64,000 nucleotides of DNA from the NCBI GenBank assembly GCA_049968235.1, contig JBMFRC010000007.1, positions 1 to 64,000 on the forward strand, in the 5' to 3' direction. The first letter of the stretch is position 1, and each line of letters begins with the position of its first letter. The notes below the pieces were generated by a model, which was given only the letters and a program-made list of their open reading frames with translations, was not told the DNA's origin and did no database searches. This document shows positions 25,283-64,000 of the stretch, piece after piece. The position numbers and the translations under genes were made by a program. This DNA is from Candidatus Hydrogenedens sp. (GTDB taxonomy: Bacteria > Hydrogenedentota > Hydrogenedentia > Hydrogenedentales > Hydrogenedentaceae).

Positions 25283-28200
25283 CTAAAAACAGAAGCCGTC
25301 TTCGCTATTCCCAGGACAGAGGGAGTAATGTCCAATGTTAAATATCTGAATTAATCGTAATAATTCTCCAAGGTTAATTTGCCAATCTTGTGGATTGTAA
25401 TCGGATGAATGCGGATAGCAGGAATGGTCTCCATCTAAACCGGGAGAGTAACCATCTTCAGTCCCTTCTTCACAGTGATAACCTCGTATATTAAAGAATT
25501 GTATGACTCGAAGAAGTTCGGTTAAATTAATTGTTCCATCGTTATTTGAATCTGCTGAATGGTGTGTGATTACTTCGCCCTCACCTTCTTGCAAGCCTTC
25601 TCCTTCTATTATACCTTCACCTTCAAATGTTCCTTCAGTTACTCCTTCGCCATCCACTGCTCCTTCGCCTTCTGTTGGTGTTCCTTCACCTTCCATTATT
25701 CCTTCACCTTCCAGTGGTGTCCCCTCACCTTCTAATGTGCCTTCTATTATTCCTTCGGAGCAAGGTCCGGTAGATACATAAATAGTAACTACGGAGCCCG
25801 TAATTATTTGTGTTCCACTGGCTGGCTCCTGTCCAAAAACGATACCTGGTTCTACTCCATCATTGCATTCTGTAACAACACTTACAGTTAATTCCGCAGT
25901 GTTAATTTGGTATTCTGCGGATGACTGTGTTAATCCAATTACATATGGCACAATGGTCATACAAGGACCCAGAGATACTGTAATATCCACAGAAGACCCT
26001 TCCGGAACTTGAGTTCCTGCTGGTAAACTTTGTATAAAAACAATTCCTTCATCATACTGATTGGAACATTGATAATTGACATTACCTATTAAAAGATTTG
26101 CATTAGCAAGTATCAGTTCTGCTTGTTCTACCGCAAACCCAACTATAGCAGGAACATTTGTTGGGCATGGTCCTGAGGAAACTTTCATATCCACAGCATA
26201 CGATTCAGCAACAATATTGTTTTCTTCTGGTGTCTGTGAAAATACCGTTCCTGCTGGATATGCTGTGTTACATTGAACCGAGACCGAACCTCTGTTTAGT
26301 CCTAACTCTGTCAAGGTATTATTTGCTTCTTCCTGACCTAAATCTATTAGTCGCGGAATACTTACAAATTGAATAAGGGGAGTATCTTTCAATTGTGGGT
26401 AACTTTGTGTTTTGGATGGTACATACCACACATTTGCAAAATCCCAACCTGCAATTAAATATGTGTTTATATTTAATAATTCCGTAGTGGTTTTTCCTGT
26501 CCCTCCCCAAGAAGTATTCATACGACTTGTTATTACATTCCAGAATGAGTTCTTTGTTTCTCCTCCGGACTGATACCCAATCAATCCACCAATATAGCCA
26601 CTTATTCCTGATACTTTTCCAATCGAATAACAATTTTCAATAGTCCCCCCAGTAAGATAACCAACCAGTCCTCCTGAATAGAAGGAAGCTTTAACTGTTC
26701 CTGTCGCAAAGCAATTGGTAATAGTACCACCCGTATTCTTTCCGGCAAGCCCTCCTAAATAATTTTGACCATCTAAGTATACATTTGCCCAGCATTTACT
26801 TATTGCCCACGCATTGCTTCCAACAATGCCACCGCAATTATCACTCGCCTTAATTGTTCCTGTACTTGTGCAATATGATACATTTCCATCGTTAGAACCA
26901 ACAATTCCTCCTGCACCGAACGGTGTATTGGTTATATTCATATTAACCTCTGAATAACATTGAGTTACAATATCCTGGTTTTGTCCAACAATTCCGCCGG
27001 TATTTGAATTATTTTGAGAATTACTTAAAATAACATTTGCATAACAGTTTGATATATTCCCATTTTGATTTAATCCCGAAATTCCACCAAGATTGCCTTT
27101 ACCCAATAATGTTCCACTCACCGAAATATTGATAATAGCCCCACCTTCACAAACTCCAATCAAACCTCCTGTATTATTTTTGCCTGAAATGCTGACATCT
27201 TCCAAAATTAGATTTTTAATAATGGCATTTCCCGATATCTTTCCAAATAACCCTATATTATCAGTAGATGATCTATTAATTGTCAGATTTTTAATTTTAA
27301 AACCTTTACCATCAAAATAACCTGTAAAAGGATTATATTGGTTTCCTATAGGAGCGAATCCCAGCCTACCATTCCATTCCGCAGTATTACTCGCATCGAT
27401 ATCCTGACTTAATTCATATCCTCCGTCTAATGGATAATCTGCTGAATTTCCTATTAGTTGTAATTCATCTATACTTGATAGAACTTTTGTTGGTGGAGGA
27501 CAGGGACCATCTGACACAACTAAATTAACGCTATATCCTAAAGGGGCTTCCCAGCCGGGCAATGGGTCTGAGGTGACAACATTTCCATACCCAACGGTAT
27601 CTGAGCATTGATATGATATTTCGCCGACGGTCAATGATGTGGAGATAATTATATCCTGTGCCTCTTCGAGTGGAATGTTATATACAGAAGGTACAGTAGT
27701 GGTTACAAATAGATAAGGATACACAGTATCGTTATCATTGGTCCATGTAAATTCAAAGTCCCAGCCTTCTGCCTCGAATGTTGCACTTTCCAACATTTCT
27801 TCAGTTGTTTTTCCTGTTCCACCAGCGGATGAGTTATAATTCGAAGTATCTTTATCCCAGAATGAACGAATTACATTACCCCAATTGTAGCCTATCAACC
27901 CACCGGAATTGGTTGCACCTTCCGTTACTGAACCTTTAGAATAGGTTTCTTCTACATTGGCAAAATTTAATCCAACAAGTCCTCCCCCGTATTCATGACA
28001 GAATACATTAGAGTGTGAATAGCATCGGTATATTGTGCCTTGATTTACTCCTATCAAGCCCCCAACATAACTTTCAGAACTGATTACTTCACCTTCAGAA
28101 TAAGATTTGCGTATATACCCTTTATTCTTTCCTGCAATTCCACCGATGTATGAACTACCAGAAACATTCGCATTTACATTAGAAAAGTAAATTCCTGATT

Positions 28201-31656: not shown

Positions 31657-32853
31657 GTGTCATCATTTTCAAGACCTAAAAAAACAATAGGCATAGACCT
31701 GGGTGCACACTCTGTTAAAACATTACAAATGTCTAAACAAGGAAGAAAAATTTATATAGAAGAAGCAGGCTATGCAGAAATAGATTCTGAATTATCCATT
31801 GCAGACCCAATCAAAGCGAACACAGATGCTTTATTAACAGCACTTACAGGATTATCTCCTAAACAAAGCTATATAGTTTCCGCACTACCTGGAAATACTG
31901 CGGTTGTTCGTTATCCTAAAATCACATTAAAATCAAATGAAACAATAGCAAGTGCTGTTCAAAGGGAATCTTCTCAACATATTCCATTCGACTTAAATGA
32001 GGTATTTTTATCCTGGGATGTTATAGAAAAAGAATCAGAAGAATCTAAAGTACAGATACTTCTGGTAGCAGCGAAAAATGAGGCTATAAACAGCCGTCTT
32101 CGTATTTTCCAGGCATGTGATATTGCATGTTCGGTGTTTGATATAGATTCAATTGCGGTATATAACGCAATAGAAAGGTGTCATTTATTGCATCCCGAAG
32201 AAAGCGTTGCTATTTTTGACATTGGTTACTCTTCTTCAAGTATACATTTTGTTCGCGATATGAAATCTGTGTTTATCCGAGATTTAATGTGGGGGGCAAA
32301 AGATATTCTTGATGCTATCGTAAAGGAAAGAAAATGCGATTATAAACAAGCGGAAAAAGACTTAATTTTAGCAAGCAAAGAAGCCAAAGAAGAACATCCC
32401 GAAGCTGTTGAAATTGCCACACCTGAAGTAGGTGAAGTAGAAGAAGCAATTGTAGCAGAACCTGTTTCCCCACTTGAACCTTTAGATGATGAATTTGATA
32501 TTGATAGACCACCTGTAGAAGTTATAGGTTTTACACCAAAAAGTATAAGTGAAATTATGATTTCGCCTATGAATCGAATGGTGAGTGAGGTAAGACGCTC
32601 TTTTGATTTCTATGAACACCAACTTTATGAAAAACCTGTTAAAAAGATTATTCTTTGCGGTGGTATATCTTGTTATCCTTTAATTGGCGCAACATTAGTG
32701 GAAGAATTTGATGTAGATTCGGTCGAACTTGCTGATTTAACGACTTCAGAAGTTTTTCTTTCCAATTCAAAATCATTAGAAATTTTCAAAGAGCATTCAG
32801 CAAAATTTGCTGTTGCTTTTGGCTTAGCAGCACGAGGATTATCAGAAATATGA
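31657..32853 (+). CDS. pilM: Type IV pilus assembly ATPase-like protein PilM, with an acidic Pro/Glu-rich insertion
   Basis: Actin-like fold N-terminus IGIDLGAHSVKTLQM. First gene of a pilMNOPQ array. Insertion EEHPEAVEIATPEVGEVEEAIVAEPVSPLEPLDDEFD. Confidence 0.8.
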   Translation: MSSFSRPKKTIGIDLGAHSVKTLQMSKQGRKIYIEEAGYAEIDSELSIADPIKANTDALLTALTGLSPKQSYIVSALPGNTAVVRYPKITLKSNETIASAVQRESSQHIPFDLNEVFLSWDVIEKESEESKVQILLVAAKNEAINSRLRIFQACDIACSVFDIDSIAVYNAIERCHLLHPEESVAIFDIGYSSSSIHFVRDMKSVFIRDLMWGAKDILDAIVKERKCDYKQAEKDLILASKEAKEEHPEAVEIATPEVGEVEEAIVAEPVSPLEPLDDEFDIDRPPVEVIGFTPKSISEIMISPMNRMVSEVRRSFDFYEHQLYEKPVKKIILCGGISCYPLIGATLVEEFDVDSVELADLTTSEVFLSNSKSLEIFKEHSAKFAVAFGLAARGLSEI

Positions 32854-33581
32854 TAAGAATTAATTTATTACCCGAACAATATAGACCTGTAAAGAAATCC
32901 ATACTTCCATACTTTTTGGCAATGGTGATATGTGTTTTAGGTATTCTGTCTATTATTTTCTTTTACTTATCACTACACCAAAAAGTTATTCAAGTTGAAA
33001 CACAAAAAAGTAAACTCCAAAAAGAATATGACTCTCCAACTGAATTAAGAAATGAAGATGGAGAATTTATAACCCTATCAGGAGTTGTAAATGAATATCG
33101 GAAGTTAGATAAGAAAAAACAGGAATTAGAAAAAAGAGTGGCTGTTATTCAGGAAATTCTAAGTGACCGCATTATCTGGTCTGAAAACCTTTTCTTGCTT
33201 GCTACATTGACGCCAGAAAATGTTTGGTATGATAGAATTCGTGTTACATGGCAGACATTTCGGGAAAAAGTTATTAAAATAGACCAAAAAACAGGCAAAG
33301 CAGTTATTGACCCTAAAACAAAAGAACCTCAATTTGAACAGAAAAGTGTAAAGAAGCCTATTCTCGAAATCACTGGTTATGTAATTAGTGGAGAACAAGG
33401 TGAACGACAAATATCTCCTCTTATTGAAAATACAACAGACCCCGAAAAAGCATCCTATTTCGTAAAACAGTTTACTTTATTAAGACCTAAGATTGAAGAT
33501 ACAGAGTTTAATGGTTTTTCCGTTCGTAAATTTACATTAGAATATTTAATTGAAGCCAAACCGGGAGTCAAAAATGATTGA
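32850..33581 (+). CDS. pilN: Type IV pilus inner-membrane component PilN
   Basis: MIRINLLPEQYR start motif. Single N-terminal TM. ATGA overlap with pilM. Confidence 0.75.
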   Translation: MIRINLLPEQYRPVKKSILPYFLAMVICVLGILSIIFFYLSLHQKVIQVETQKSKLQKEYDSPTELRNEDGEFITLSGVVNEYRKLDKKKQELEKRVAVIQEILSDRIIWSENLFLLATLTPENVWYDRIRVTWQTFREKVIKIDQKTGKAVIDPKTKEPQFEQKSVKKPILEITGYVISGEQGERQISPLIENTTDPEKASYFVKQFTLLRPKIEDTEFNGFSVRKFTLEYLIEAKPGVKND

Positions 33582-34161
33582 TTTATTTCGTGGCAAAATA
33601 ACAATTAAAGACTGGGCAATTTTCGGGTTGGTATTGGCAGTTGTTGTTGGTTTATTTATTACTGCCTACCTGCTACTCTTTATTCCACAACAAAATAAGA
33701 TAGCACAGATACAAAATGATATTAATAATTTGCAAAAGAAGATTTCAGATGCAAAAAAAACCGTAGATAATTATGACAAATTACAGAATCAAGCGAAGAA
33801 GATGGACAATTTAGTAAAAATGTTTAATGAACGATTGCCCGAAAAAAGAGAAGTCCCGAAACTTATGAAACAATTTGAAAGTATGGGAGATAGCCTAGGA
33901 TTAAAAACGCAACTTACTCCCCTACCTACAACCGTAGACGCATCAAAAGAAGTAATTCCGTATCAGGTTGTGGCTAAAGGTTCTTTTCATCAGATTGTTG
34001 CTTTTATCAACTTATTAGAAAAAGACCAGCGTTATCTAAAAATTTCAGACCTTGATATTGGCCCTGAAAAAGCAGGGATTTGTGAAGCAAAATTTGTTCT
34101 TAGTACATTCCGTTTCGTTGAACAAGAAGATACTGGAACCCAACAACAGAAGAAGTCATAA
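33574..34161 (+). CDS. pilO: Type IV pilus inner-membrane component PilO
   Basis: Single TM, coiled coil then periplasmic domain. The likely start is MIDLFRG, overlapping the pilN stop; the track gives an alternative upstream start at 33550. Confidence 0.6.
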   Translation: MIDLFRGKITIKDWAIFGLVLAVVVGLFITAYLLLFIPQQNKIAQIQNDINNLQKKISDAKKTVDNYDKLQNQAKKMDNLVKMFNERLPEKREVPKLMKQFESMGDSLGLKTQLTPLPTTVDASKEVIPYQVVAKGSFHQIVAFINLLEKDQRYLKISDLDIGPEKAGICEAKFVLSTFRFVEQEDTGTQQQKKS

Positions 34162-34163
34162 CT

Positions 34164-34745
34164 ATGGATAACAGAAGACAAATAATCATAGCAGGAGCAT
34201 TGCTCGTTATACTTATCGGCGTTCTCTTCTATCAATTCGTTTTGGCAAGGCCCAATGCACCAACTCCTTCGCCAACAACCAATACAAAAACAACTACGCA
34301 AACCCTTTCAACAACAACTTCTACACAAGTAGCATCTACATCCACAAGCGGAACATCCATTGCACCTACGATTGATACTCTGGAACAAAATGTTGATGAA
34401 ATCATCGAAAATTTATTAACTGCTATTCAAATAGTCCAATTTAACTATCAAGAAATAGTTCCTCCCCGTAACCCAATGACACCACTGGTTGGGGTAATAC
34501 CAACAACAATATTTGAGGCAGAAACCCCTGTTCCTAATACAGAAGTAACACCGGGACAGGTTCTCAGTAAAAAGATTTCGGCGATTATCTGGGATGAATA
34601 TCAACCTTTAGCCATAATTGACAATAAACTTGTGGCAGAAGGATATACTTTCCCAGACCGTATACAAGTATATAAGATTGAACCAACACGGATTATATTT
34701 AAACTCGAAGATACAATTTTCCCGGTAAGATTAAAGGAGCAATAA
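34164..34745 (+). CDS. pilP: PilP-like lipoprotein/periplasmic pilus assembly protein with Thr/Ser-rich linker
   Basis: Its position between pilO and pilQ. N-terminal TM/signal. T/S-rich low-complexity linker. C-terminal beta-rich domain. Confidence 0.4.
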   Translation: MDNRRQIIIAGALLVILIGVLFYQFVLARPNAPTPSPTTNTKTTTQTLSTTTSTQVASTSTSGTSIAPTIDTLEQNVDEIIENLLTAIQIVQFNYQEIVPPRNPMTPLVGVIPTTIFEAETPVPNTEVTPGQVLSKKISAIIWDEYQPLAIIDNKLVAEGYTFPDRIQVYKIEPTRIIFKLEDTIFPVRLKEQ

Positions 34746-34746
34746 A

Positions 34747-37404
34747 ATGCAAAAAAGGAAAAACATCTGTTCCAATTTACAGCAATCTGCTATAATAGCA
34801 CCATGTAAAAAGGGGTTTTATGTTCCTGGTTTTCTTCTGTTTATTCCCTTACTTTTCATTGTTTGTTCACCATCCCTTGCTATTGATGATGGAACGAACT
34901 CTTTATGGAAACAGCAAGAAAATACATGGGTCTTCCAACTCAACAATAATCTCAATATGTCGTATCTCATATCGGAAAACAAAGAGAAAAATGAAATTAA
35001 ACTCACATTAGAATATTCCAACGGTATTTCTCTCTCTACGGAACAAATTTTACAAAACAAACCTGATTTTGTATCTATCGATTGTTCAAAAATAGACAAA
35101 TCTGGCATGGAATATACCTTTTCTATCGCATCCAACCATGCGTATAATGTCCAAAAAAACGAAAATAGTTTATCTATCATTTTTAAACCAGCGGGAAAAT
35201 ACCCTTCTGAAATTGAAAAGGTTGCTTCAGATATACAATCGCTCATAAATAATTCTAATATTAGAGGAACATCTATTGTTGATGAAAAAATTAACTCTTT
35301 AGACAACACAATATCTAAACTCCGGGTTGAAAATGAACTTAAATTAGCCAAACAAATCACACCTGAATTAATATTACAAAAACCCAATCAAGTTTTTAGT
35401 CAGAATATAAATGTAGCACAATCGCTTTCCGTTGGAAATGTAGGGAATCCAGAAAGAAAAATTGAAATTCGTGAAGCAAAACCTGTGGATACACCTCCCC
35501 CCCCACCCCCTCCTGCAGTAGAAAATACAGATACCCAACCGCAGGAGAATATTTCCCAAACACCTCCTGAAACACATAAAGAAGAAGCCTCTCAACAACC
35601 CCAAACTACACAGGAAACTCCCGCAGAAGAAGGAACGCAACCTCCTATGCCTCGTGAAGCAACACCGGAACAGGCAATCGATGCTACAGCAGAGATAACA
35701 AGAGAATTAAGAGAATTGCAAACTACAAATGAAGAACCAGATAAACAATTAGTTCCTATAACGCCAGAAGAAACAAAACCTGCAGGAAAAATAACCGAGG
35801 CAGAAAAACCAAAAGAGGAAATTTTATCAGAGGTAAAAATTAAACCTTCGCCTAAAGGTTTAGATACCATCACGGACTTTGAATGTGAACAGATGCCTTT
35901 AGCTAAAGTAGTTCCTTTATTAGCTTACAAAGCAGGGATAAATGTAATAGCGGGAGCAGACCTTAAAGGCAATGTTACTATGAGTTTGAAGCAAGTAACT
36001 CTTAGAAAAGCCATTGAAGCTGCTTTAAGAATGAATGGGCTTGGAATAATTCAAGAAGAAAATATCTATCGAATTGTTCCTTATGAAGAAGCGCTGTCCA
36101 GTGATAGAAGTACTATTGTTGTCCGTCTGGAAAACGCTAAAGCAACCGAAATAAGAAAAGTTCTCGAAGAAATTACAAAAGGGACAAAAGGTAGGGAATA
36201 TATTACCCTTAGTGCCAATGATACTACAAATGTAGTAATTCTCTCGGGACCAGAAGAAAACATTCAAGGTTTGGCACAAATGGCAAAGGAATTGGATATA
36301 GCCAAACCTATTATTCCTACAATAACAGCAACAATAAAACTAAACTATGCAGACCCCGACGAACTGGCAAAATCTATTCAAAAAATTCTCACACCTAAAA
36401 CAGGAAATGTATCTGCAGATGCTCGTGCAAGAAATATTATTGTAACCGATATTCCGGTGGTAGTTGAACAAGTAAAAGAAATTGTGAAAACCCTTGATAT
36501 TCCTGTTAAACAGGTCCTTATTGATACAATGGTTGTTGACGCTACATTAGGAGATGAATCACAAACAGGTATTGATTGGTTATTAAAATCGGTTCGTAAT
36601 CAGAGTTGGAGAGATTTTGTAATGTATGGACCTGAGGGTAGAAAAGTAGGTAATATTCAGCAACTTGATTTAGGTGGTGCATCCCAAACAGGTGATACGA
36701 TAGGCAACCTTACCTTCAATATTCTTACTCGTGAAATCGATTGGAAAGGTATAATTAAAGCCCAGATACAAAATCGGAATGGACATCTCATTTCCAACCC
36801 TGTTGTAGCCACTATTGAGAATAAACCTGCAACAATAACAATCTCTCAAGAAATTCCTTATATCGACCTTTCACAAACAAGTGAGGGAGGTGCTTTGACA
36901 AATACACGATTCAAACAGATAGGTACTGTTCTTGAGGTTACCCCGCGGGTTACTCATGATAATCATGTAATTATAGACATTAAGGGTAAAGAAAGCACTG
37001 TGGTCGGTGAGTTTAATGGTGTTCCCATTGAAGATATGAGACAGGTTACTAGCACACTTCATATTAATAGCGGTCAAACTATCTTTGTTGGCGGCTTAAG
37101 AAAACGCAATGATAGTGTAACCTCGCAGAAAATGCCCATACTCGGAGATATACCTGTATTAAATGTTGTCTTCAAATCTAATCAACGGAAGGCTCAAATT
37201 AATGAGTTATTAATCTTCCTTACTTGCTCTGTTTTAGAACAGGAATTACCGGAATTAACAGATGAGCAGAAAAAAGCCTATGACGACGCAAAACAGGCAC
37301 CTATGGATGCAGACCTCAGTAAATATATGGGACATGATATCCTTCACCCAAAAGATATATCTACTCCTCCCTATAAATGGAAAAGGGTCAAAAAAGACCA
37401 ATAG
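34747..37404 (+). CDS. pilQ: Type IV pilus secretin PilQ, with a long Pro/Gln/Glu-rich linker between N-terminal domains
   Basis: C-terminal secretin domain (…VLEVTPRVTHDNHVIIDIKGKES…IFVGGLRKRND…MPILGDIPVLNVVFKS…ELLIFLT…). PPPPPPPA linker. Confidence 0.9.
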   Translation: MQKRKNICSNLQQSAIIAPCKKGFYVPGFLLFIPLLFIVCSPSLAIDDGTNSLWKQQENTWVFQLNNNLNMSYLISENKEKNEIKLTLEYSNGISLSTEQILQNKPDFVSIDCSKIDKSGMEYTFSIASNHAYNVQKNENSLSIIFKPAGKYPSEIEKVASDIQSLINNSNIRGTSIVDEKINSLDNTISKLRVENELKLAKQITPELILQKPNQVFSQNINVAQSLSVGNVGNPERKIEIREAKPVDTPPPPPPPAVENTDTQPQENISQTPPETHKEEASQQPQTTQETPAEEGTQPPMPREATPEQAIDATAEITRELRELQTTNEEPDKQLVPITPEETKPAGKITEAEKPKEEILSEVKIKPSPKGLDTITDFECEQMPLAKVVPLLAYKAGINVIAGADLKGNVTMSLKQVTLRKAIEAALRMNGLGIIQEENIYRIVPYEEALSSDRSTIVVRLENAKATEIRKVLEEITKGTKGREYITLSANDTTNVVILSGPEENIQGLAQMAKELDIAKPIIPTITATIKLNYADPDELAKSIQKILTPKTGNVSADARARNIIVTDIPVVVEQVKEIVKTLDIPVKQVLIDTMVVDATLGDESQTGIDWLLKSVRNQSWRDFVMYGPEGRKVGNIQQLDLGGASQTGDTIGNLTFNILTREIDWKGIIKAQIQNRNGHLISNPVVATIENKPATITISQEIPYIDLSQTSEGGALTNTRFKQIGTVLEVTPRVTHDNHVIIDIKGKESTVVGEFNGVPIEDMRQVTSTLHINSGQTIFVGGLRKRNDSVTSQKMPILGDIPVLNVVFKSNQRKAQINELLIFLTCSVLEQELPELTDEQKKAYDDAKQAPMDADLSKYMGHDILHPKDISTPPYKWKRVKKDQ

Positions 37405-48934: not shown

Positions 48935-50905
48935 TTATTGGTTGGCTTGAACATTTTCAGATGGGATTGTAGGTGGTTTAACAATTAAAGATTCCTCAAT
49001 ATTCCCATCAATAATAATATCACCTTTAACAGTCTTTAACAGAACAGTATATTTTCCTTCTCGAATCTGGGCTTCTGCTTCTTGTTTCATTCTAGAAAAA
49101 ACACCCATTAAAGGAAGGGCAGTATCAATAATTCCCTCTTGCGTTATGGCTTTTAATTTACAATCTGTTTCAGGTGATAAAAGAATACTAATATTTCCCT
49201 TATCGGTTGAAATGTCAATATCGCCTAATATTCCATTCAGAGCCAAAAAACGAACATCTCCTTCCTGCAATCGTGCTACAACCTTCGATTGAATATCTTC
49301 TAAATTCACATTTGCCTGAATAGCCGTTATATTAATAGGTGCTTTAATATTTTTCAATGTCGCCAACCCACCACGAATCGCTATTTCTCCATTACTACCC
49401 ATATCTTCTATTCGTATATTCCCTTTTTGATTTGATACAAAATAAGGACCTTTACATGTTAATACAGAAACGACACCTGACCCTTGATTTATTCGTAGAG
49501 AACTCTCCATATTTTCACATGCAGTTTGTCCTTCTTTTGACTCTATAGAAACACCCATATGGGAAGGACAAAATATCTGAATATCCACCCTCCAATCTGA
49601 AAGATATTCGGGAAGAGCATCAAAATTTCCCGAAGTCATAATATATATTCTATTTTCTGTTCGATGAAGGTTTGCTGACACTTTCTCCAATGCTGATGTT
49701 GCTTTATCTGCAGAAGAAACCCAAACCAAACGGGTTGCTTTTACTCGTATTTTATTATCACCTGACGGGAGAATACGAACATCTCCTTTTTGATTGTTTA
49801 TTATTAAAACATCCTCGGGAGTTATTTCTTCCTCTACGGAAAAAACTTCACTAAAAGGTTTATAGTTTGATATAGTACTCTGAGGACTGGATAGAAATGT
49901 GTCGCTTCTAAAAAGAGCTACCTCCGAAAATACCGCTGTTATTTCAATTTTTTGTTTCGCATCCGGATTGGTTAAGTCTAAAGTACTCAATGAGCCTGTA
50001 CTTTTTTGAAGAATAGGCACATCCGTACTTAACTGACTTCCTAATAAACTCCCTTTCACTTCTAATTGTGATGTATCTTCAAACTTAATACTTGATTTGC
50101 CACTATCTGTATGCAAAATATACCTTCCTACTCCTAATTTTTGTAGTTTTAGTTCTCCTAAAAGATTATAAATACTAACTTCCCCTTGCAAATCATATAT
50201 CTCTGCATTTGTTCTCGAAAGATAGAAAAAACCACCATTTGTAATTTTTTTCGCTTTTAGCGGAAATTCCCCCTGTGTTCTCACTGAAACCTTGCCATTA
50301 ATATTTTCAAGTTCTATCGAACCATACTGTTCGTTAATCGTTACAGTTCCATCCACATTGGATATTCGCGTATCTCCAAAAAAATTATCAACAGAAATAT
50401 TTGCAGAACGAGGTAGTGTAATCACATAATCAATTTTTATAAATGATACACTCTCTTCGGGAAATTGATTTTCAATTAATAGTGTATTATTTTCGTTATT
50501 GATTCGTGGCTGGAAATTACTTGCTGTTTTTTCAAGAACATCTTGATTTTGCCCACCTAAGGTTAGGGTCGTCTGCACAACTACTAACGGCTCACTCCAC
50601 GATTTAATTTCAACGAGTCCAAACTCATTTTTTATCAAGACATTTATATTTTGAGATACAGAGACCTGATTTTCATAGTTCTTTGTAATTGTATATGGGA
50701 CAGATTGTTGATTGCCGAAAAGGTTTGACCTTAGTACCTCATCTGCATAAGAACCAATCTGATGAATACCTTTTATAACGGTATCAAACCCTGTTTTAAC
50801 GCCATCCAGAAGTTTGTCCTGTCCGTATGAGGAGGAGGCATACAGGTAGACACAAATAAAAAATATTAATAACTTTTTCAAATTATTGTTTCTATAATGC
50901 ATCAT
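48935..50905 (-). CDS. Secreted beta-strand-repeat (DUF4097/adhesin-like) protein
   Basis: Signal peptide. Repetitive G-x-I/V-x-I/V beta-solenoid-like segments (…GDVRISN…GKVSVRT…GNIRIED…). Confidence 0.4.
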   Translation of the reverse strand: MMHYRNNNLKKLLIFFICVYLYASSSYGQDKLLDGVKTGFDTVIKGIHQIGSYADEVLRSNLFGNQQSVPYTITKNYENQVSVSQNINVLIKNEFGLVEIKSWSEPLVVVQTTLTLGGQNQDVLEKTASNFQPRINNENNTLLIENQFPEESVSFIKIDYVITLPRSANISVDNFFGDTRISNVDGTVTINEQYGSIELENINGKVSVRTQGEFPLKAKKITNGGFFYLSRTNAEIYDLQGEVSIYNLLGELKLQKLGVGRYILHTDSGKSSIKFEDTSQLEVKGSLLGSQLSTDVPILQKSTGSLSTLDLTNPDAKQKIEITAVFSEVALFRSDTFLSSPQSTISNYKPFSEVFSVEEEITPEDVLIINNQKGDVRILPSGDNKIRVKATRLVWVSSADKATSALEKVSANLHRTENRIYIMTSGNFDALPEYLSDWRVDIQIFCPSHMGVSIESKEGQTACENMESSLRINQGSGVVSVLTCKGPYFVSNQKGNIRIEDMGSNGEIAIRGGLATLKNIKAPINITAIQANVNLEDIQSKVVARLQEGDVRFLALNGILGDIDISTDKGNISILLSPETDCKLKAITQEGIIDTALPLMGVFSRMKQEAEAQIREGKYTVLLKTVKGDIIIDGNIEESLIVKPPTIPSENVQANQ

Positions 50906-59103: not shown

Positions 59104-61803
59104 CTAATATTCATAGGCTCCCATATCATAATCAGACCCATCCCCGGTAACACCTGAAATGGCGTCTCGTCCACGGAGATTTCCTTCAATATCTGTCAAT
59201 ACATTTCCCCATTCATTAGGACTTGTATCCATTCCTCTGTCGATACAAGGAGAACTACTATTCAATCTAAAATTACCGGCACTCGGGAAAATAAATAATG
59301 GGTCTGAACTTATATTTCCTTCTCCATTCTTCACCTGCTGTGTGTTACAATACATAAAAATTGCATCATTCCCGAGAGAATATGTCCCCTGTCCAGAATT
59401 TTGCCATATAATAGTATTCGCAAATGCTACATTGCTATAGTAGTTAAACACAGCCCCACCATGACTCGTCGTTGTTAAATCTGCTTGATTATCATATAAG
59501 GTACAGTTTGAAAAAACAACATTTTCACACAGGTCTATATGCACCCCACCCGTTCTTTCAATAGAAGAACTAAAATCATAAGCCTTATTTCTAAATCCTA
59601 TGGCATTTACAATTTTTGCAGAACTTTTTGTCATATAAATCATTCCTGCACTTGCTCGGGAAAAACCCCTATGGTCATTTGTAGAAACCGTATTATTTCT
59701 AAAATCTGAGTTTCTCAAATTTATATCGCTATACCATAGGTAAATAGCCCCTCCTAATGCTTTTGCGAAAGCACCATAAACCCCACCGTTAACAGTCCCA
59801 TGCCCTATCCCTTCTGCGGAACATGCATTTGAATAGAACAAACAGTTATCTATAGTTAATGAAGTATTGTAAGCAAATATTCCTCCACCAGCAGACACAA
59901 CGGTTATGTTCTGTGTAGAGGTTTGCCAAGTTCCTTGTGATGAAATTCGATTTGACTCAAAACGAGAATTCTGAATATTAATTACACTGTCTGTCACATA
60001 AATAGCAGAACCATAATTATAACTGGAATCGGATGAAACATTTTCTATTACATTCTCAATGAAATTACAGTTATATAAAGATAATTTCCCACTGATACAA
60101 CATATGCCAGCACCTACTCCGACTGATTTATTCTGGAAAAATGTACAGTTCTTGACAACCATTTTCTTTGCGGGAATATATAGACCACCTCCATCCTGAG
60201 CATCGCTGTAAACATAATCATAGCGGGCATCTCCCCCTTTTATTATGAATCCATTCAGTTCGCTATAATTTTCACCTTTAACTACATGCCAGGCTGGTTG
60301 TCCATCTCTTGCGATACTGCCATTTATAATAGTGATATTTGTTTGATAATTTCTTTGATTTAGTTCAGTTTCCGTACCTTGAAATCCCCCATAGACATTC
60401 ACCAATTCTCGAAGTATTAATGCTCCATAAGGATTTAAAGGATTTGAACGAACTTCATTATAATCTCCCGCAGAAACCCATACCTCTCCTCCACCTAACT
60501 CGAACGCTCTATCTATCCCTTCTTGCAAAGTAGGAAATGCTGTTGCCCATGATAATCCATCAGGTTCAATTTCTTCTTTTTGCCCCTTTGTCTGAGGTTT
60601 TTTTACATATATTCGTGAACCCTGGATTATTTCAATATAATCTGTTTTTTGTTTTATACTTTGTCCTGCACTGGTCGTAACGATTAATGTTACGGTATAA
60701 ATTCCCGGAGATAGATATGTGTGAGTAGGATTCCTCAAGAAACTAAAACTTCCATCCCCGAAATTCCACTGCCAGGCTGGTTCTGTTCCATTGCCCATTT
60801 TACTTTCATCACGGAACTCGATTTCATTATTGATTATGTTTTTTACAGGGGTAGCCGAAAAGTCTGCTATGGGAGGATAAGGAAAGGAACTATAAATACG
60901 TATGTAACCCGCTAAAATAGAAAGCGGATATATCAATCCATCAGGATAACTGGTAGCCATCACATTTTCTGCATAAATAGAATAAATATCATTAAATTCA
61001 GCATTTTCAGAGACTTTAAACCTCAAAATAGCATATATGCCTGATGACATTCCTGAAGTGGATGTGCCTGTTGTCGTTAATCTAAGTTTCCCTGGAATGA
61101 TTTGTCCTACTGATAGATTTCGACCTGTATTTTGAATCGCCGGTCCTATCATAAAATCCAGATATTGTATCCGATTGGAATTGAAAATCAGGTCAAACTG
61201 AACATATCCTAATATAACATTTTTAGTTTCAAGAGTAAGCGGAATATTTATTTCTGTATTAGGAACTGTATCCTTTCTATCAACAACAATACGAGCATAA
61301 TTATATGTCTCTCCTTCTCCTTCCCCTTCCAATACTCCTTCCGCAGAACCTTCTCCTTCGAAACCTTCCGGAGTCCCTTCAGGTGCCCCTTCAATAATTA
61401 CAGGACATAAAACAGGGCGAAAACCATCTTCTTTAGATGGGTCTATTTCATAACCACATACATTATAAAACTGAACCAAACGAAGAAGCTCATTTAATGT
61501 TATTCGCCAGAAATTATTCGGTTCATAATCGCTATCATGGGGTTCACATGACTGGTCCCCCGCTCCCGGTGCATATCCGTCTTCTCCAGCAGGGTCACAA
61601 TGATAGGCACGGGCATTAAAAAACTGGATTACACGTAGTAATTCGCTTAAATCAATTTTATAATCTTGATTCTTATCTGCAGTATGATAATCTCCCTTCC
61701 CAACCGAATCAACTGCATAGGAAGCATTACTTAAAATCCCGTTTAATACACACAAAAAAATGGCAGTTACAAACAGCCCTAACAATGTTATTTTACGTCT
61801 CAT
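59104..61803 (-). CDS. Secreted 899-aa protein: N-terminal tandem dockerin-like module, EGEG linker, PKD domain and right-handed parallel beta-helix (pectate-lyase-fold) region
   Basis: Signal peptide. DLSELLRVIQFFN…ITLNELLRLVQFYN. EGEGSAEGVLEGEGEGE. WQWNFGDGS…NPTHTY (PKD). Repeated NxxFxxN beta-helix turns. Confidence 0.65.
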   Translation of the reverse strand: MRRKITLLGLFVTAIFLCVLNGILSNASYAVDSVGKGDYHTADKNQDYKIDLSELLRVIQFFNARAYHCDPAGEDGYAPGAGDQSCEPHDSDYEPNNFWRITLNELLRLVQFYNVCGYEIDPSKEDGFRPVLCPVIIEGAPEGTPEGFEGEGSAEGVLEGEGEGETYNYARIVVDRKDTVPNTEINIPLTLETKNVILGYVQFDLIFNSNRIQYLDFMIGPAIQNTGRNLSVGQIIPGKLRLTTTGTSTSGMSSGIYAILRFKVSENAEFNDIYSIYAENVMATSYPDGLIYPLSILAGYIRIYSSFPYPPIADFSATPVKNIINNEIEFRDESKMGNGTEPAWQWNFGDGSFSFLRNPTHTYLSPGIYTVTLIVTTSAGQSIKQKTDYIEIIQGSRIYVKKPQTKGQKEEIEPDGLSWATAFPTLQEGIDRAFELGGGEVWVSAGDYNEVRSNPLNPYGALILRELVNVYGGFQGTETELNQRNYQTNITIINGSIARDGQPAWHVVKGENYSELNGFIIKGGDARYDYVYSDAQDGGGLYIPAKKMVVKNCTFFQNKSVGVGAGICCISGKLSLYNCNFIENVIENVSSDSSYNYGSAIYVTDSVINIQNSRFESNRISSQGTWQTSTQNITVVSAGGGIFAYNTSLTIDNCLFYSNACSAEGIGHGTVNGGVYGAFAKALGGAIYLWYSDINLRNSDFRNNTVSTNDHRGFSRASAGMIYMTKSSAKIVNAIGFRNKAYDFSSSIERTGGVHIDLCENVVFSNCTLYDNQADLTTTSHGGAVFNYYSNVAFANTIIWQNSGQGTYSLGNDAIFMYCNTQQVKNGEGNISSDPLFIFPSAGNFRLNSSSPCIDRGMDTSPNEWGNVLTDIEGNLRGRDAISGVTGDGSDYDMGAYEY

Positions 61804-61922: not shown

Positions 61923-63590
61923 TTAATGGAAGAAACTTTTTTTACAGGTTCCGAAGATATTCCCACAGGTTGTTATGCTAAGTTCCTTAATATAATTTTC
62001 AAGTTCACCCATAGTTATTGTCTGATTCTTATTCGCATCAATTTCTGAGAAAAATTCCTGTGTAACCTGAGGATATTTTTGTATGATTTCTGAAAAAGTT
62101 AGCACTCCATCTCCATCTATATTACAATAACTGAATGTGGAGAATATCTGCAAAACAAGGTTTCTCTTTTCATCTTTATCCAATGTTTTAATTTTCTGAT
62201 AACTGACATCTAGCGTAATATAAAAGGCGTGTGGAATATAGACCTGCTTTTGAGGGGGAGTTATATATCCATCTATATCAGAAAAAATAATTTTATAAAA
62301 ACCTATTGGAAATATTGCTATTTCACCGGATTTCTTCCATTCTTCCTTTCCTTGTATCTGCCATCCAGCATTTAACTTAACTACTTCATCCGGGAAAATA
62401 TTAACTACGATTCCTCCCGATTTCCAATAATTTACTTCTATAACTTTATCCTCGTTCTCACCAATTTCTACTTGAATATATTCAGAAGTTGACCAACCTA
62501 CCGGTTGAGTAAAAAACACTTTATAAATACCTGCATAAAGATTTTCTACTTTATCACCACTATTATACAGATTATCATCACCTTCAATTTGCCACTGAGC
62601 ACCACTTAAAACCGCATCATTAGGAGTTAAAATAACCGTTAATGAACTATATAATGGGGTTTCTCCCTCTCCTTCTAAGGACCCTTCCGGAATACCTTCC
62701 GGAATACCTTCCAAAATACCTTCACCTTCCGGAGGTTCTCCTTCCCCACACCCCACACATCCTCCTCCATTATCTTTCTTTGCTGGATTCAAGACACTCC
62801 CTTTATATCCCTCTACACCATACCCTTTTATTATATTCCACCGATATTCACCATAATTGCAGACCCCATCCCTATCCGCATCCCCTACCTTACTTAAATA
62901 CCTCGCCATACTTAAATCAAATTGACTCATATCCGGCATCGGAACATATATCGGTAAGTCTTCTATCATCCCTAAAAGCATATCTATTGTCGTCTTTTCT
63001 CCTACCGTTGTCAATCCCGATACTACCCCTTCAAATTTACTCCTATCCAATAGTATAAATACCACAGGCTGAACCAACTGTATTTCATCTGCATATAACC
63101 TCGTGCTTTCTACATTATAGCGATATGCCTGCTTCACACAACAATGTATCTCCTGAGTATTTTCCCTCAATACTTCATCTAATAACCACGCTTGAACTAC
63201 ATCTATCATCCCATTCGTATCCAAATCTGCCGTATCCGGTTCCTCTCCTACATACTCATACAACCACCGTAAATCTTCCTCAAAATGGCTCTCTCCCAAT
63301 ACATCATCACATCCCCCTATACACGGCTCTATATTGCATGGGTCAAACAAACCCTCTCCTTCCCCTTCTATCACTCCTTCTATACTACCTTCGATAATAA
63401 CCTCTCCTTCCATCACTCCTTCTATACTACCTTCTATTACTCCTTCTCCATTTACCATGCCCTCCGTTATCCCTTCATTACTTACAATCGTATCATTTGC
63501 GAACAATGCTTGTTGTAAAAAATACCCCCAAAAAATAAGCATAAAGAATGCAAAAACACTATTCCTATACGCTTTACTTTTCTTATCCAT
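61923..63590 (-). CDS. Secreted protein with two EGEG-type acidic linkers and a C-terminal EF-hand/dockerin-like Ca-binding pair
   Basis: Start chosen at the internal Met (MDKKSKAYRNSVFAFFMLIFWG… signal peptide) rather than the track's 63704. (IEGx)n and (PEGx)n tracts. C-terminal NIDGDGVLTFSEI…DANKNQTITMGELENYI. Confidence 0.5.
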   Translation of the reverse strand: MDKKSKAYRNSVFAFFMLIFWGYFLQQALFANDTIVSNEGITEGMVNGEGVIEGSIEGVMEGEVIIEGSIEGVIEGEGEGLFDPCNIEPCIGGCDDVLGESHFEEDLRWLYEYVGEEPDTADLDTNGMIDVVQAWLLDEVLRENTQEIHCCVKQAYRYNVESTRLYADEIQLVQPVVFILLDRSKFEGVVSGLTTVGEKTTIDMLLGMIEDLPIYVPMPDMSQFDLSMARYLSKVGDADRDGVCNYGEYRWNIIKGYGVEGYKGSVLNPAKKDNGGGCVGCGEGEPPEGEGILEGIPEGIPEGSLEGEGETPLYSSLTVILTPNDAVLSGAQWQIEGDDNLYNSGDKVENLYAGIYKVFFTQPVGWSTSEYIQVEIGENEDKVIEVNYWKSGGIVVNIFPDEVVKLNAGWQIQGKEEWKKSGEIAIFPIGFYKIIFSDIDGYITPPQKQVYIPHAFYITLDVSYQKIKTLDKDEKRNLVLQIFSTFSYCNIDGDGVLTFSEIIQKYPQVTQEFFSEIDANKNQTITMGELENYIKELSITTCGNIFGTCKKSFFH

Positions 63591-63652
63591 ATAATTCTTT
63601 CTATATCTGTTCTTAATTATATCCTTTAAAGAGGAGATTTTGTTCAATAAAT

Positions 63653-64000
63653 TTAAATTTCTTCTATAGCCATTGCGGTTGTCTTTACAAGATGTGTCTT
63701 CCAATTTAGTTTCCTGATTAACTCTTTACCTTGTTTTTTAGACTCTACAATAACAAAAAAGGTTGACCCACTACCTGTCATTCCCACATACGGAAAACCC
63801 ATTTTTTTTATTTTTAATTTTAATTCATATAATTCTGGATAAATACAAAATGCGGGTAATTCTAATCGATTGTATATAACCTTCTTCCAATTCCTTTTCC
63901 GTAATGCATATATTACTTTTCTAAACCTAATACTATATTTAATTGCAACTACATGTGAAGGTCGAATACTTAATGCGGGATGTTGATACACCTTTGCGGT
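63653..64000 (-). CDS. ispE: 3' portion of a GHMP-kinase gene, probably 4-diphosphocytidyl-2-C-methyl-D-erythritol kinase; start lies beyond the window end
   Basis: C-terminal GHMP motif MTGSGSTFFVI, positioned as in IspE. Reading frame is open to the window edge. Confidence 0.4.
   Translation of the reverse strand, partial: TAKVYQHPALSIRPSHVVAIKYSIRFRKVIYALRKRNWKKVIYNRLELPAFCIYPELYELKLKIKKMGFPYVGMTGSGSTFFVIVESKKQGKELIRKLNWKTHLVKTTAMAIEEI

What the first reader, a model, noticed from the sequence alone, without database searches (positions are those of the whole stretch)
61414..61686. Second copy of the dockerin-like module, N-terminal, upstream of PKD and beta-helix domains
This is the same approx. 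90-aa two-helix module as at the C-terminus of the giant GLUG protein. Here it is placed right after the signal peptide and followed by an EGEG linker (61306-61398), a PKD domain and a pectate-lyase-fold beta-helix. Domain shuffling of this module between unrelated catalytic/adhesive bodies suggests a shared surface-display mechanism. The gene is convergent with, and 33 nt from, the HD-GYP response regulator.
Basis: seen in the sequence. Interest (0 to 1): 0.5.

Follow-up and report, generated by a model that had tools for sequence, protein, structure and literature searches.

The report
Dockerin-like docking module beside a cohesin
The repeated 93-residue module is real and belongs to a large, unnamed family of calcium-loop "docking tags" carried by thousands of secreted proteins of the uncultured phylum Hydrogenedentota, and the gene in question also holds an overlooked cohesin domain, the classic partner of such tags.

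Summary
Residues 40-130 of the 899-aa protein (window 59104-61803, minus strand) and the C-terminus of the GLUG/PASTA protein share one module (58% identity, E=9e-37). These are the only two copies in the window.

The module is an internal duplication of about 45 aa. Each half has an EF-hand-type loop, a helix (ELLRxIQFxN) and a beta-hairpin, with one near-invariant and one facultative cysteine pair.

No Pfam, NCBIfam or PDB sequence model covers it. A profile nevertheless finds 2,971 50%-identity clusters, mostly Candidatus Hydrogenedentota. About 76% of copies sit at the extreme C-terminus. Others follow the signal peptide, lie in tandem, or make up whole proteins. Fusion partners are very diverse.

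Cohesin plus module recur together in two protein families and in anchored-cohesin operons of related MAGs.

Best reading: a divergent, disulfide-stapled dockerin analogue for extracellular docking. The partner is probably a cohesin, but this is unproven.

The parts
59104..61803 (-). Gene for the 899-aa secreted multidomain protein. It is 100% identical to NCBI MGC8738302.1, 'PKD domain-containing protein [Candidatus Hydrogenedens sp.]'.
   Evidence: ORF list; identity; 18 orthologues with the same architecture.
61714..61803 (-). Signal-peptide-like N-terminus, residues 1-30: MRRK, a hydrophobic core, then SYA|VD.
   Evidence: Read directly from the sequence. No signal-peptide predictor was available.
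61402..61692 (-). N-terminal copy of the duplicated Ca-loop/helix/hairpin module, residues 38-134 (HMM match 39-131). Loop 1 is D43-E54, helix 1 is 52-64 and hairpin 1 is 67-79. C69 and C86 occupy the near-invariant cysteine pair. Loop 2 is D92-E105, helix 2 is 103-115 and hairpin 2 is 118-130.
   Evidence: BLASTP; HMM E=1.4e-43; AF2 model with pLDDT 92.9; family conservation.
61306..61398 (-). Low-complexity E/G/P linker, residues 136-166.
   Evidence: Translation. The same linker type precedes most C-terminal copies in the family.
60871..61305 (-).
   Evidence: Profile vs PDB sequences: 5nrk_A cohesin at E=4.6e-12, then seven further cohesins below 1e-4. Pfam Cohesin matches 11 of 17 orthologous segments, best 1.9e-12. 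AF2 pLDDT is 92.8. The top 50 Foldseek PDB hits are all cohesins, with TM about 0.8 and E=2.7e-11.
60631..60873 (-). PKD domain, residues 311-391.
   Evidence: Pfam PKD_4 at 1.8e-16.
59107..60621 (-). Right-handed beta-helix body, ending in a choice-of-anchor-Q-like segment (residues 395-899).
   Evidence: Pfam Beta_helix at 3.5e-10. NCBIfam choice_anch_Q at 24.6 bits, just under the cutoff of 25.
25289..25564 (-). C-terminal copy of the same module, at the end of the GLUG/PASTA protein (gene 25283-30064/30079). It follows a long EGEG linker, and the protein ends ...EDGFCF*.
   Evidence: Translation; HMM E=1e-44; Pfam Glug, PASTA and M26_N on the body.

Best explanation
**What it is**
- The segment is one copy of a roughly 93-residue extracytoplasmic docking module. 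The module is specific mainly to Candidatus Hydrogenedentota.
- Each half of an ancient internal duplication contains four elements: a conserved His, an EF-hand-type Ca2+-binding loop, an amphipathic helix (ELLR[VL]IQF[FY]N) and a short beta-hairpin (GYHC...TEDGY).
- Loop 1 is a canonical 12-residue loop, D-x-N-x-D-x-x-I-x-x-x-E. Loop 2 is a conserved 13-residue variant, D-Y-N-P-x-D-W-x-I-x-L-x-E.
- One cysteine pair is near-invariant (C32/C49). A second pair co-varies in presence and absence (C83/C91). Together they imply disulfide stapling outside the cytoplasm.

**How it probably works**
- It behaves like a dockerin. It is a terminal tag, joined by a flexible E/G-rich linker to very diverse secreted enzymes and adhesin-like bodies, and it non-covalently plugs them into partner proteins.
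- The most likely partners are cohesin domains. One such cohesin lies 30 residues downstream in this same protein.
- The 899-aa protein would then be an adaptor or hub. Its cohesin would capture module-bearing proteins such as the GLUG/PASTA giant, while its own N-terminal module would attach it to another cohesin or chain it head-to-tail.

**Shown versus inferred**
- Shown: homology of the two copies, family size and distribution, domain positions, predicted fold, identity of the cohesin, and cohesin-module co-occurrence.
- Inferred: Ca2+ binding, the disulfides, docking as the function, and cohesin as the partner.
- My confidence that it is a docking or binding tag is about 0.75. My confidence that the partner is a cohesin is about 0.4.
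For: **The family is real and large**
- The two window copies are homologous.
- A 34-sequence profile finds 2,971 50%-identity clusters at E no higher than 1e-3, and 1,125 at E no higher than 1e-30.
- At least 572 stretches occur in GTDB species genomes, mostly Hydrogenedentota MAGs. One MAG contributes 29 of the 79 loci kept.

**Positions fit a dockerin-style tag**
- Of the 144 best representatives, 110 carry the module only at the extreme C-terminus and 8 only after the signal peptide. The rest have internal or multiple copies.
- Proteins that consist only of a signal peptide plus 2-3 modules exist: P0186, P0193 and P0194. That makes sense for a multivalent connector and not for a sorting signal.
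- The module is fused to 86 Pfam families in 69 proteins.

**Structure**
- The AF2 model has pLDDT 92.9 and shows loop-helix-hairpin twice, with no helix before the loops.

**Calcium loop**
- The loop positions are conserved in 312 unique copies: D6 96%, N/D8 84%, D/N10 94%, I13 88%, E17 100%, D55 100%, E67 100%.
- EF-hand_6 passes Pfam's cutoff in the one paralogue for which the score is shown (P0186, 26.2 vs 25 bits); a second member matches it at E=1.5e-11.

**Disulfides**
- C32 and C49 are both present in 304 of 312 copies.
- C83 and C91 are both present in 200 copies, both absent in 108, and singly present in only 4.

**Link to cohesin**
- A true cohesin sits in the same protein. The arrangement is conserved in all 18 orthologues.
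- A second, unrelated architecture pairs the two domains: signal peptide, cohesin, module, about 260 aa (P0329-P0335, P0213, P0311, P0320).
- In 1.1 Mb of related loci, all 14 ORFs matching the cohesin profile (12 at E<=1e-4, two marginal at about 0.01) either carry the module or lie in the same operon as a cohesin-module gene.
- In L036, L070 and L072 that operon also encodes cohesins with C-terminal membrane-anchor tails.
Against: - No binding test of any kind was possible.
- Sequence methods do not place the module in the dockerin family. Dockerin_1 scores 14.4 bits against a cutoff of 22.9. The profile search of PDB sequences finds no dockerin. hhalign matches only the 14-column loop, at probability 12%.
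- The L036/L070/L072 cohesin operons also encode proteins with canonical dockerin-type repeats. Those could be the true ligands of the cohesins, which would leave the module with a different partner.
- The loci were sampled around modules, so the cohesin-module linkage is biased upwards.
- Only about 3-9% of module proteins carry a cohesin.
- The window contains two modules and a single cohesin, and nothing else that bears on the partner.
Confidence: 0.5

Rival explanations
1. The module is a docking or anchoring tag, but its partner is not a cohesin. It would bind a conserved cell-envelope component such as an outer-membrane protein, an S-layer or a surface glycan. In that role it would resemble SLH or other cell-wall-binding modules, and cohesin-bearing proteins would simply be some of its many passengers.
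For: - The exposed helix residues (E, R, Q, N of ELLRxIQFxN) are extremely uniform across hundreds of paralogues and both repeats. This suggests one invariant partner, in contrast to the diversified specificities typical of cohesin-dockerin pairs.
- The cohesin operons in L036, L070 and L072 already contain canonical dockerin-type proteins that could serve those cohesins.
- Only a few percent of module proteins carry a cohesin.
Against: - No candidate envelope partner was identified.
- The nearest solved folds are cohesin-binding dockerins.
- Cohesin and module are joined in two independent architectures.
- Module-only multi-copy proteins fit a cross-linker of proteinaceous receptors.
Confidence: 0.25
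2. The module is a secretion or sorting domain, analogous to the T9SS C-terminal domain or the CTERM sorting signals. An outer-membrane translocon or sortase-like enzyme would recognise it and then remove it or attach it covalently.
For: - About 76% of copies are at the extreme C-terminus, ending within a few residues of the stop.
- There are dozens of copies per genome, on very diverse secreted passengers and behind flexible linkers.
- The phyletic range is restricted.
Against: - This finding itself shows a conserved N-terminal copy.
- Other copies are internal or in tandem, and some proteins consist only of modules.
- There is no TM helix with a basic tail, and no match to any NCBIfam or Pfam sorting-domain model.
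- The fold is helical with Ca loops and is not the beta-sandwich of T9SS C-terminal domains.
Confidence: 0.1
3. The module is only a Ca2+-dependent structural or stabilising unit, such as an extracellular EF-hand-like 'cap', with no specific binding partner.
For: - The only sequence-level similarity is to EF-hand and dockerin Ca loops.
- Extracellular Ca-binding repeats often act as folding switches (general knowledge).
Against: - A purely structural unit would not be expected to be strictly terminal, separated from the body by a disordered linker, attached to 86 unrelated families, or to occur as module-only proteins.
- Strong conservation of solvent-facing polar helix positions argues for an interface.
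Confidence: 0.1

Closest known systems
Type I dockerin modules (Pfam PF00404) of cellulosomal and non-cellulosomal proteins
   Same: - Both are internally duplicated, with two Ca-binding loop plus helix units and no entering helix.
- Both are usually C-terminal but sometimes N-terminal, internal or doubled.
- Both are joined by linkers to many unrelated secreted bodies and occur in many copies per genome.
- Both co-occur with cohesin domains, including in the same polypeptide as in adaptor scaffoldins.
- Dockerins are the nearest solved folds.
- The definition of dockerin used here, two EF-hand-like Ca motifs in a loop-helix-helix-loop-helix arrangement, follows PMC12484212.
   Different: - The module is about 93 aa, against about 60-70 for dockerins.
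- Each repeat is about 45 aa and adds a beta-hairpin.
- It has one near-invariant and one facultative cysteine pair.
- It has Glu, not Asp, at loop position 12.
- The second loop has 13 residues, with conserved Tyr, Pro and Trp.
- A conserved His lies three residues before each loop.
- It falls below Pfam's threshold, and hhalign matches only the loop.
- Binding to cohesin is untested.
Non-cellulosomal proteins carrying both cohesin and dockerin. Examples are the Archaeoglobus fulgidus proteins (solved cohesin 2xdh) and the Clostridium perfringens NagJ/NagH system (2ozn). The class was surveyed by Peer et al. 2009, FEMS Microbiol Lett 291:1, cited in PMC10066038.
   Same: - Cohesin and a dockerin-type module sit in one non-cellulolytic secreted protein.
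- The organism is not a cellulosome producer.
   Different: - The partner module here is a distinct family and not a PF00404 dockerin.
- The system is expanded to dozens of tagged proteins per genome in a candidate phylum.
- I could not read the Peer et al. paper, so the comparison with it rests on its title and on my own knowledge.
EF-hand pairs (Pfam EF-hand_1/6/7)
   Same: - Repeat 1 has a canonical 12-residue loop with D, N, D at positions 1, 3 and 5, a hydrophobic residue at 8 and Glu at 12.
- EF-hand_6 passes Pfam's cutoff in at least one paralogue (P0186, 26.2 vs 25 bits); a second member matches at E=1.5e-11.
- One source names a member 'EF-hand domain-containing protein' (P0026).
   Different: - No entering helix precedes either loop in the model.
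- The window copies are below the Pfam cutoffs (17.1 vs 25 bits).
- The context is extracellular and disulfide-bonded.
C-terminal sorting domains (T9SS CTD, MYXO-CTERM, PEP-CTERM)
   Same: Both are predominantly at the extreme C-terminus of many diverse secreted proteins within one lineage.
   Different: - The module also occurs at the N-terminus, internally, in tandem and alone.
- It has no TM segment or basic tail.
- Its fold is different, and no model matches it.

Membership tests
Dockerin (Pfam PF00404, type I) | Tandem duplication of a Ca-binding loop followed by a helix, with no entering helix | tested here: met
   An out-of-register BLASTP HSP at E=9e-11 shows the duplication. The AF2 model has coil, then helix 15-27, then coil, then helix 66-78. 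The same motif is conserved in both halves.
Dockerin (Pfam PF00404, type I) | Score above the Pfam Dockerin_1 gathering threshold, or significant profile similarity to dockerins | tested here: not met
   The GLUG copy scores 14.4 bits against a cutoff of 22.9, and the 899-aa copy gives no hit. The family profile finds no dockerin among PDB sequences at E up to 10. hhalign against a 5-sequence dockerin profile aligns only 14 columns, at probability 12%.
Dockerin (Pfam PF00404, type I) | Fold superposes on solved dockerins | tested here: inconclusive
Dockerin (Pfam PF00404, type I) | Two 12-residue EF-hand-like loops with Asp/Asn ligands | tested here: inconclusive
   Loop 1 is canonical, with Glu at position 12. 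Loop 2 is one residue longer: D-Y-N-P-x-D-W-x-I-x-L-x-E. Metal binding itself was not testable.
Dockerin (Pfam PF00404, type I) | Binds a cohesin, Ca2+-dependently | not testable with these tools
   Only co-occurrence could be examined: same protein, a second cohesin-module family, and operon neighbours.
Cohesin (Pfam PF00963), for residues 167-311 | Significant sequence-profile match to cohesins | tested here: met
   The orthologue profile hits PDB cohesins: 5nrk_A at 4.6e-12, 6kg8_A at 5e-8 and 2vn5_A at 8e-7. Pfam Cohesin matches 11 of 17 orthologous segments, best 1.9e-12. The window's own segment alone gives no Pfam hit.
Cohesin (Pfam PF00963), for residues 167-311 | Cohesin beta-sandwich (jelly-roll) fold | tested here: met
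   The AF2 model has pLDDT 92.8 and is all-beta. All of the top 50 Foldseek PDB hits are cohesins, with best E=2.7e-11 and TM of 0.78-0.81.
EF-hand pair (Pfam PF13499 and relatives) | Helix-loop-helix with an entering helix, and a score above the Pfam cutoff | tested here: not met
   The model has no helix before either loop. EF-hand_6 scores 17.1 bits against 25, and EF-hand_7 scores 12.9 against 30, for the window copy.
C-terminal sorting domains (T9SS CTD, MYXO-CTERM, PEP-CTERM) | Obligatory extreme C-terminal position, a matching family model, and a TM/basic tail where applicable | tested here: not met
   N-terminal, internal, tandem and module-only occurrences exist. No NCBIfam or Pfam sorting model matches. 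The proteins end right after ...EDGFCPG, with no TM segment.

The most novel reading that the evidence does not exclude
Hydrogenedentota possess a phylum-wide, non-cellulolytic cohesin-based extracellular assembly system. Its 'dockerin' is a previously unmodelled, disulfide-stapled 93-residue variant carried by dozens of enzymes and adhesins per genome. The conserved 899-aa protein (module, cohesin, PKD, beta-helix) would be a self-chaining hub. Small signal-peptide-cohesin-module proteins and membrane-anchored cohesins would tether the whole network to the cell surface of a didermic, uncultured lineage.
Probability: 0.35. Interest if true: 0.65.

Novelty: new variant of a known kind. Interest (0 to 1): 0.5.

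Why it matters
**An unannotated family.** Nearly 3,000 50%-identity clusters of secreted proteins from a candidate phylum with no cultured members share a terminal module. Pfam-A (2025) and NCBIfam 20.0 do not model it. NCBI annotates this protein only as 'PKD domain-containing'.

**What a confirmed docking tag would give.**
- A way to define the surface or exoproteome of Hydrogenedentota from sequence alone.
- An explanation of how giant GLUG/PASTA, LRR and peptidase proteins are displayed.
- A structurally distinct, disulfide-stabilised cohesin-dockerin-type pair for the protein-assembly toolbox.

**What remains if the partner is not a cohesin.** The module would still mark a lineage-specific envelope-targeting system worth defining.

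**Practical outcome.** The family deserves its own profile model. The gene's annotation should gain a cohesin domain and this module.

Tried and rejected
**Rejected explanations**
- Low-complexity or chance similarity: rejected.
- Recent duplication or gene conversion between the two window copies: rejected. DNA identity is 59%, with most third codon positions different.

**Searches that found nothing useful**
- Family profile against PDB sequences: only noise, such as GIGANTEA and GTP cyclohydrolase at E of 0.16 or more.
- Pfam and NCBIfam on the isolated module: only sub-threshold EF-hand hits.
- hhalign against a small canonical-dockerin profile: only the Ca loop aligns. That profile was built from PDB alignments and from neighbouring genes in L070/L072.
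- Foldseek against PDB for the module: nothing significant.

**Sorting-signal idea**
- It was considered because of the C-terminal bias. It was rejected on the N-terminal, internal, tandem and module-only copies.

**Attempts to widen the cohesin side**
- The word-indexed protein search with a diverse cohesin profile returned only 7 proteins. All were small cohesin-module proteins.
- The context of a small cohesin-module gene in an AT-rich lineage (L080/L081) showed a stand-alone gene with unrelated neighbours, so there is no conserved operon there.

**Literature and other checks**
- No paper links Hydrogenedentes to this module or to cohesin-dockerin systems in any specific way. Peer et al. 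2009 is not held.
- No intrinsic terminator was found in the 33-nt convergent gap.
Full report
**1. Observation**

The finding lies inside a 899-aa ORF on the minus strand, 59104-61803. Coordinates 61414-61686 encode residues 40-130: HTADKNQDYKIDLSELLRVIQFFNARAYHCDPAGEDGYAPGAGDQSCEPHDSDYEPNNFWRITLNELLRLVQFYNVCGYEIDPSKEDGFRP.

The C-terminus of the large GLUG/PASTA protein (ORF 25283-30079, minus strand) ends with a closely similar stretch. The likely true start of that gene is the ATG at 30064, which precedes a signal peptide.

- BLASTP of the two segments gives 58% identity over 91 residues, E=9e-37. A second, shifted HSP (E=9e-11) aligns the second half of one copy with the first half of the other, so the module is an internal duplication.
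- A family HMM scores the two copies at 1e-44 and 1.4e-43. Nothing else in the six-frame translation of the window scores better than E=0.15.
- At the DNA level the copies are 59% identical. They are old paralogues.
  - a signal-peptide-like N-terminus;
  - an E/G linker at 61306-61398;
  - PKD and beta-helix domains;
  - a convergent REC-GAF-HD-GYP response regulator 33 nt away.

**2. What the module is**

The protein is 100% identical to an NCBI entry annotated only as 'PKD domain-containing protein [Candidatus Hydrogenedens sp.]'.

Family size and distribution:
- A word-indexed search with the module returned 64 short, mostly truncated proteins. Nearly all that carry a name are from Candidatus Hydrogenedentes.
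- A trimmed 34-sequence alignment (A2) was used as a profile against 1.84 billion cluster representatives. It found 2,971 proteins at E no higher than 1e-3 and 1,125 at E no higher than 1e-30.
- A scan of one genome per GTDB species gave at least 572 confirmed stretches. One Hydrogenedentota MAG (JAKQOG...) supplies 29 of the 79 loci kept. MAGs labelled Nitrospirales or Desulfobacterales also carry many copies, but those labels are unverified.

Lack of an existing model:
- No Pfam-A or NCBIfam model covers the module. There are only sub-threshold hits: EF-hand_6 at 17.1 bits against a cutoff of 25, and Dockerin_1 at 14.4 against 22.9.
- No PDB sequence matches the profile.

**3. Anatomy**

Across 312 unique copies each half reads as follows: H-[ST]-A-D-x-[ND]-x-[DN]-x-x-I-x-L-S-E-L-L-R-[VL]-I-Q-F-[FY]-N-x-G-G-Y-H-C-x-x-x-T-E-D-G-[YF].

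- Loop 1 is a textbook 12-residue EF-hand loop. Positions 1, 3 and 5 are D, N/D and D/N, position 8 is Ile, and position 12 is Glu (100% conserved).
- Loop 2 is a conserved 13-residue variant: D(100%)-Y-N-P-x-D-W(99%)-x-I-x-L-S-E(100%).
- C32 and C49 are both present in 304 of 312 copies.
- C83 and C91 are both present in 200 copies, both absent in 108, and singly present in 4. This presence/absence pattern points to one obligatory and one facultative disulfide, and so to an oxidising, extracytoplasmic location. That is an inference.
- The N-terminal copy in this gene lacks C83/C91. It has cysteines at NVCGY and VLCP instead, and these are conserved in its orthologues.
- AlphaFold2 on A2 gives pLDDT 92.9. 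The model is coil, helix 15-27, hairpin 30-42, coil, helix 66-78, hairpin 81-93, with no helix preceding either loop.

**4. Relation to dockerins**

- Foldseek finds nothing significant, but 16 of its 26 weak hits are again dockerins.
- hhalign against a small canonical-dockerin profile aligns only the Ca loop.
- The module therefore shares the dockerin plan as summarised in PMC12484212: duplicated Ca-loop plus exit helix, pseudo-symmetric.
- It is nevertheless a separate sequence family with several differences:
  - repeats of about 45 residues;
  - added beta-hairpins;
  - disulfides;
  - Glu at loop position 12;
  - a 13-residue second loop.
- I treat 'works like a dockerin' as plausible and 'is a Pfam dockerin' as not met.

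**5. Where it sits and what it is attached to**

| Position class among the 144 best representatives | Count |
|---|---|
| Extreme C-terminus only | 110 |
| After the signal peptide only | 8 |
| Internal or multiple copies (up to four, in P0185) | 26 |

- Proteins made only of a signal peptide plus two or three modules exist: P0186, P0193 and P0194.
- In 69 full-length members the module is joined to 86 different Pfam families. These include Ig-like domains, InlB B-repeats, CHRD, PASTA, LRR, beta-helix, Chlam_PMP, peptidases M14, S1 and M4, FGE-sulfatase and cohesin.
- The N-terminal placement in this gene is conserved in all 18 orthologues, down to 35% identity.

**6. The overlooked cohesin**

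Residues about 167-311, between the EGEG linker and the PKD domain, looked cohesin-like on reading. Several orthologues carry a precomputed PF00963 hit.

- A profile of this segment from 17 orthologues (A4) hits solved cohesins at E=4.6e-12 (5nrk_A). Seven further cohesins score below 1e-4.
- Eleven of the 17 segments match Pfam Cohesin, best 1.9e-12. The window's own segment alone gives no Pfam hit.
- The AF2 model has pLDDT 92.8. Its top 50 Foldseek PDB hits are all cohesins, with TM about 0.8 and E=2.7e-11. They include the non-cellulosomal Archaeoglobus cohesin 2xdh.
- The protein is therefore: signal peptide, module, linker, cohesin, PKD, beta-helix, choice-of-anchor-Q-like tail.

**7. 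Cohesin-module linkage elsewhere**

In 1.1 Mb of related loci I found 103 ORFs carrying the module. Fourteen ORFs matched the cohesin profile, 12 at E no higher than 1e-4 and two marginal at about 0.01. They break down as follows:
- 4 are orthologues of this protein.
- 5 are small signal-peptide-cohesin-module proteins of about 260 aa.
- 5 are cohesin-only ORFs in the same operon as one of those small proteins.

The small family was recovered independently as P0329-P0335. All seven carry the module, at E between about 1e-41 and 1e-46.

In L036, L070 and L072 the operon is as follows:
- one to three proteins with canonical dockerin-type repeats;
- then a cohesin-module protein;
- then a cohesin with a long linker and a C-terminal TM helix;
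- then a cohesin with a GCGC motif, a TM segment and a basic tail (MYXO-CTERM-like, E=0.033, below cutoff).

In an AT-rich lineage closer to the window, the small cohesin-module gene stands alone.

These data tie the module to cohesin-based assemblies. They also show that canonical dockerins coexist with it, so the module's own partner is not settled.

**8. Mechanism and rivals**

Best-supported reading (confidence 0.5 for the statement as a whole; about 0.75 that it is a docking tag, about 0.4 that the partner is a cohesin): a Ca2+-structured, disulfide-stapled, dockerin-analogous docking tag. It would plug secreted proteins into partner proteins, most likely cohesins. The 899-aa protein would act as an adaptor or hub, and the GLUG/PASTA giant would be one of its possible clients.

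| Rival explanation | Confidence | Main objection |
|---|---|---|
| The tag binds a non-cohesin envelope component | 0.25 | No candidate partner was identified |
| It is a sorting or secretion domain | 0.10 | N-terminal, internal, tandem and module-only copies |
| It is a purely structural Ca-binding unit | 0.10 | Terminal, linker-separated, promiscuous distribution |

No binding evidence could be generated here. A complex prediction and Ca-dependent binding assays are the decisive next steps.

**9. Novelty and score**

Non-cellulosomal cohesin-dockerin pairs are known (Peer et al. 2009, cited in PMC10066038). I could not read that paper. The module itself appears unmodelled and undescribed in the libraries and literature available to me.

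I rate it a new variant of a known kind, with interest 0.5. The specific finding, a second N-terminal copy, is correct but modest. Its value comes from the size of the family and from the cohesin found next to it.

Noticed in passing
window 60871-61305 (-): A genuine cohesin domain lies between the EGEG linker and the PKD domain of the 899-aa protein.
   Followed up: yes
window 61923-63704 (-): The 593-aa ORF lies directly upstream on the same strand, with a 119-nt gap. It has two E/G-rich linkers like those next to the module, a C-terminal EF-hand (Pfam EF-hand_1, 1e-6) and two Ig-like repeats, but no copy of the module. The TTG start is doubtful. An internal Met (residue 39) is followed by a signal-peptide-like stretch.
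   Followed up: partly
window 25283-30079 (-): The listed TTG start of the GLUG/PASTA ORF is probably wrong. An ATG five codons downstream (30064) begins MDIAKRNYLLLIVVASFTVCISNLSAQ, which looks like a signal peptide. The body has at least 7 GLUG motifs, an M26-peptidase N-terminal-like region and 4 PASTA domains.
   Followed up: partly
L070 7410-12117; L072 6912-12093; L036 7611-12298: GC-rich Hydrogenedentota-type MAGs hold a compact operon. It encodes 1-3 proteins with canonical dockerin-type repeats, a signal-peptide-cohesin-module protein, a cohesin with a long linker and a C-terminal TM helix, and a cohesin ending in GCGC, a TM segment and a basic tail (MYXO-CTERM-like, sub-threshold). 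It looks like a minimal anchored cohesin-dockerin system in a non-cellulolytic lineage.
   Followed up: partly
P0186, P0193, P0194 (proteins): These secreted proteins consist only of two or three tandem copies of the module. They are possible multivalent connectors.
   Followed up: partly
window 31657-37404 (+): A PilM homologue (Pfam PilM_2, 2.7e-39) is followed by four co-directional ORFs, including one of 885 aa. This is probably a type IV pilus or secretin cluster, about 1.6 kb from the GLUG gene. The downstream ORFs were not examined.
   Followed up: no
window 48935-50905 (-): This 656-aa ORF has no Pfam hit at E no higher than 1e-4.
   Followed up: no
loci L005, L009, L014, L020-L023 and others; L008, L021, L052, L054, L063: MAGs labelled 'uncultured Nitrospirales' and 'Desulfobacterales' carry many copies of the module. 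One 'Nitrospirales' bin contributes at least 14 loci. The cause could be mislabelled or contaminated bins, or real spread beyond Hydrogenedentota.
   Followed up: no
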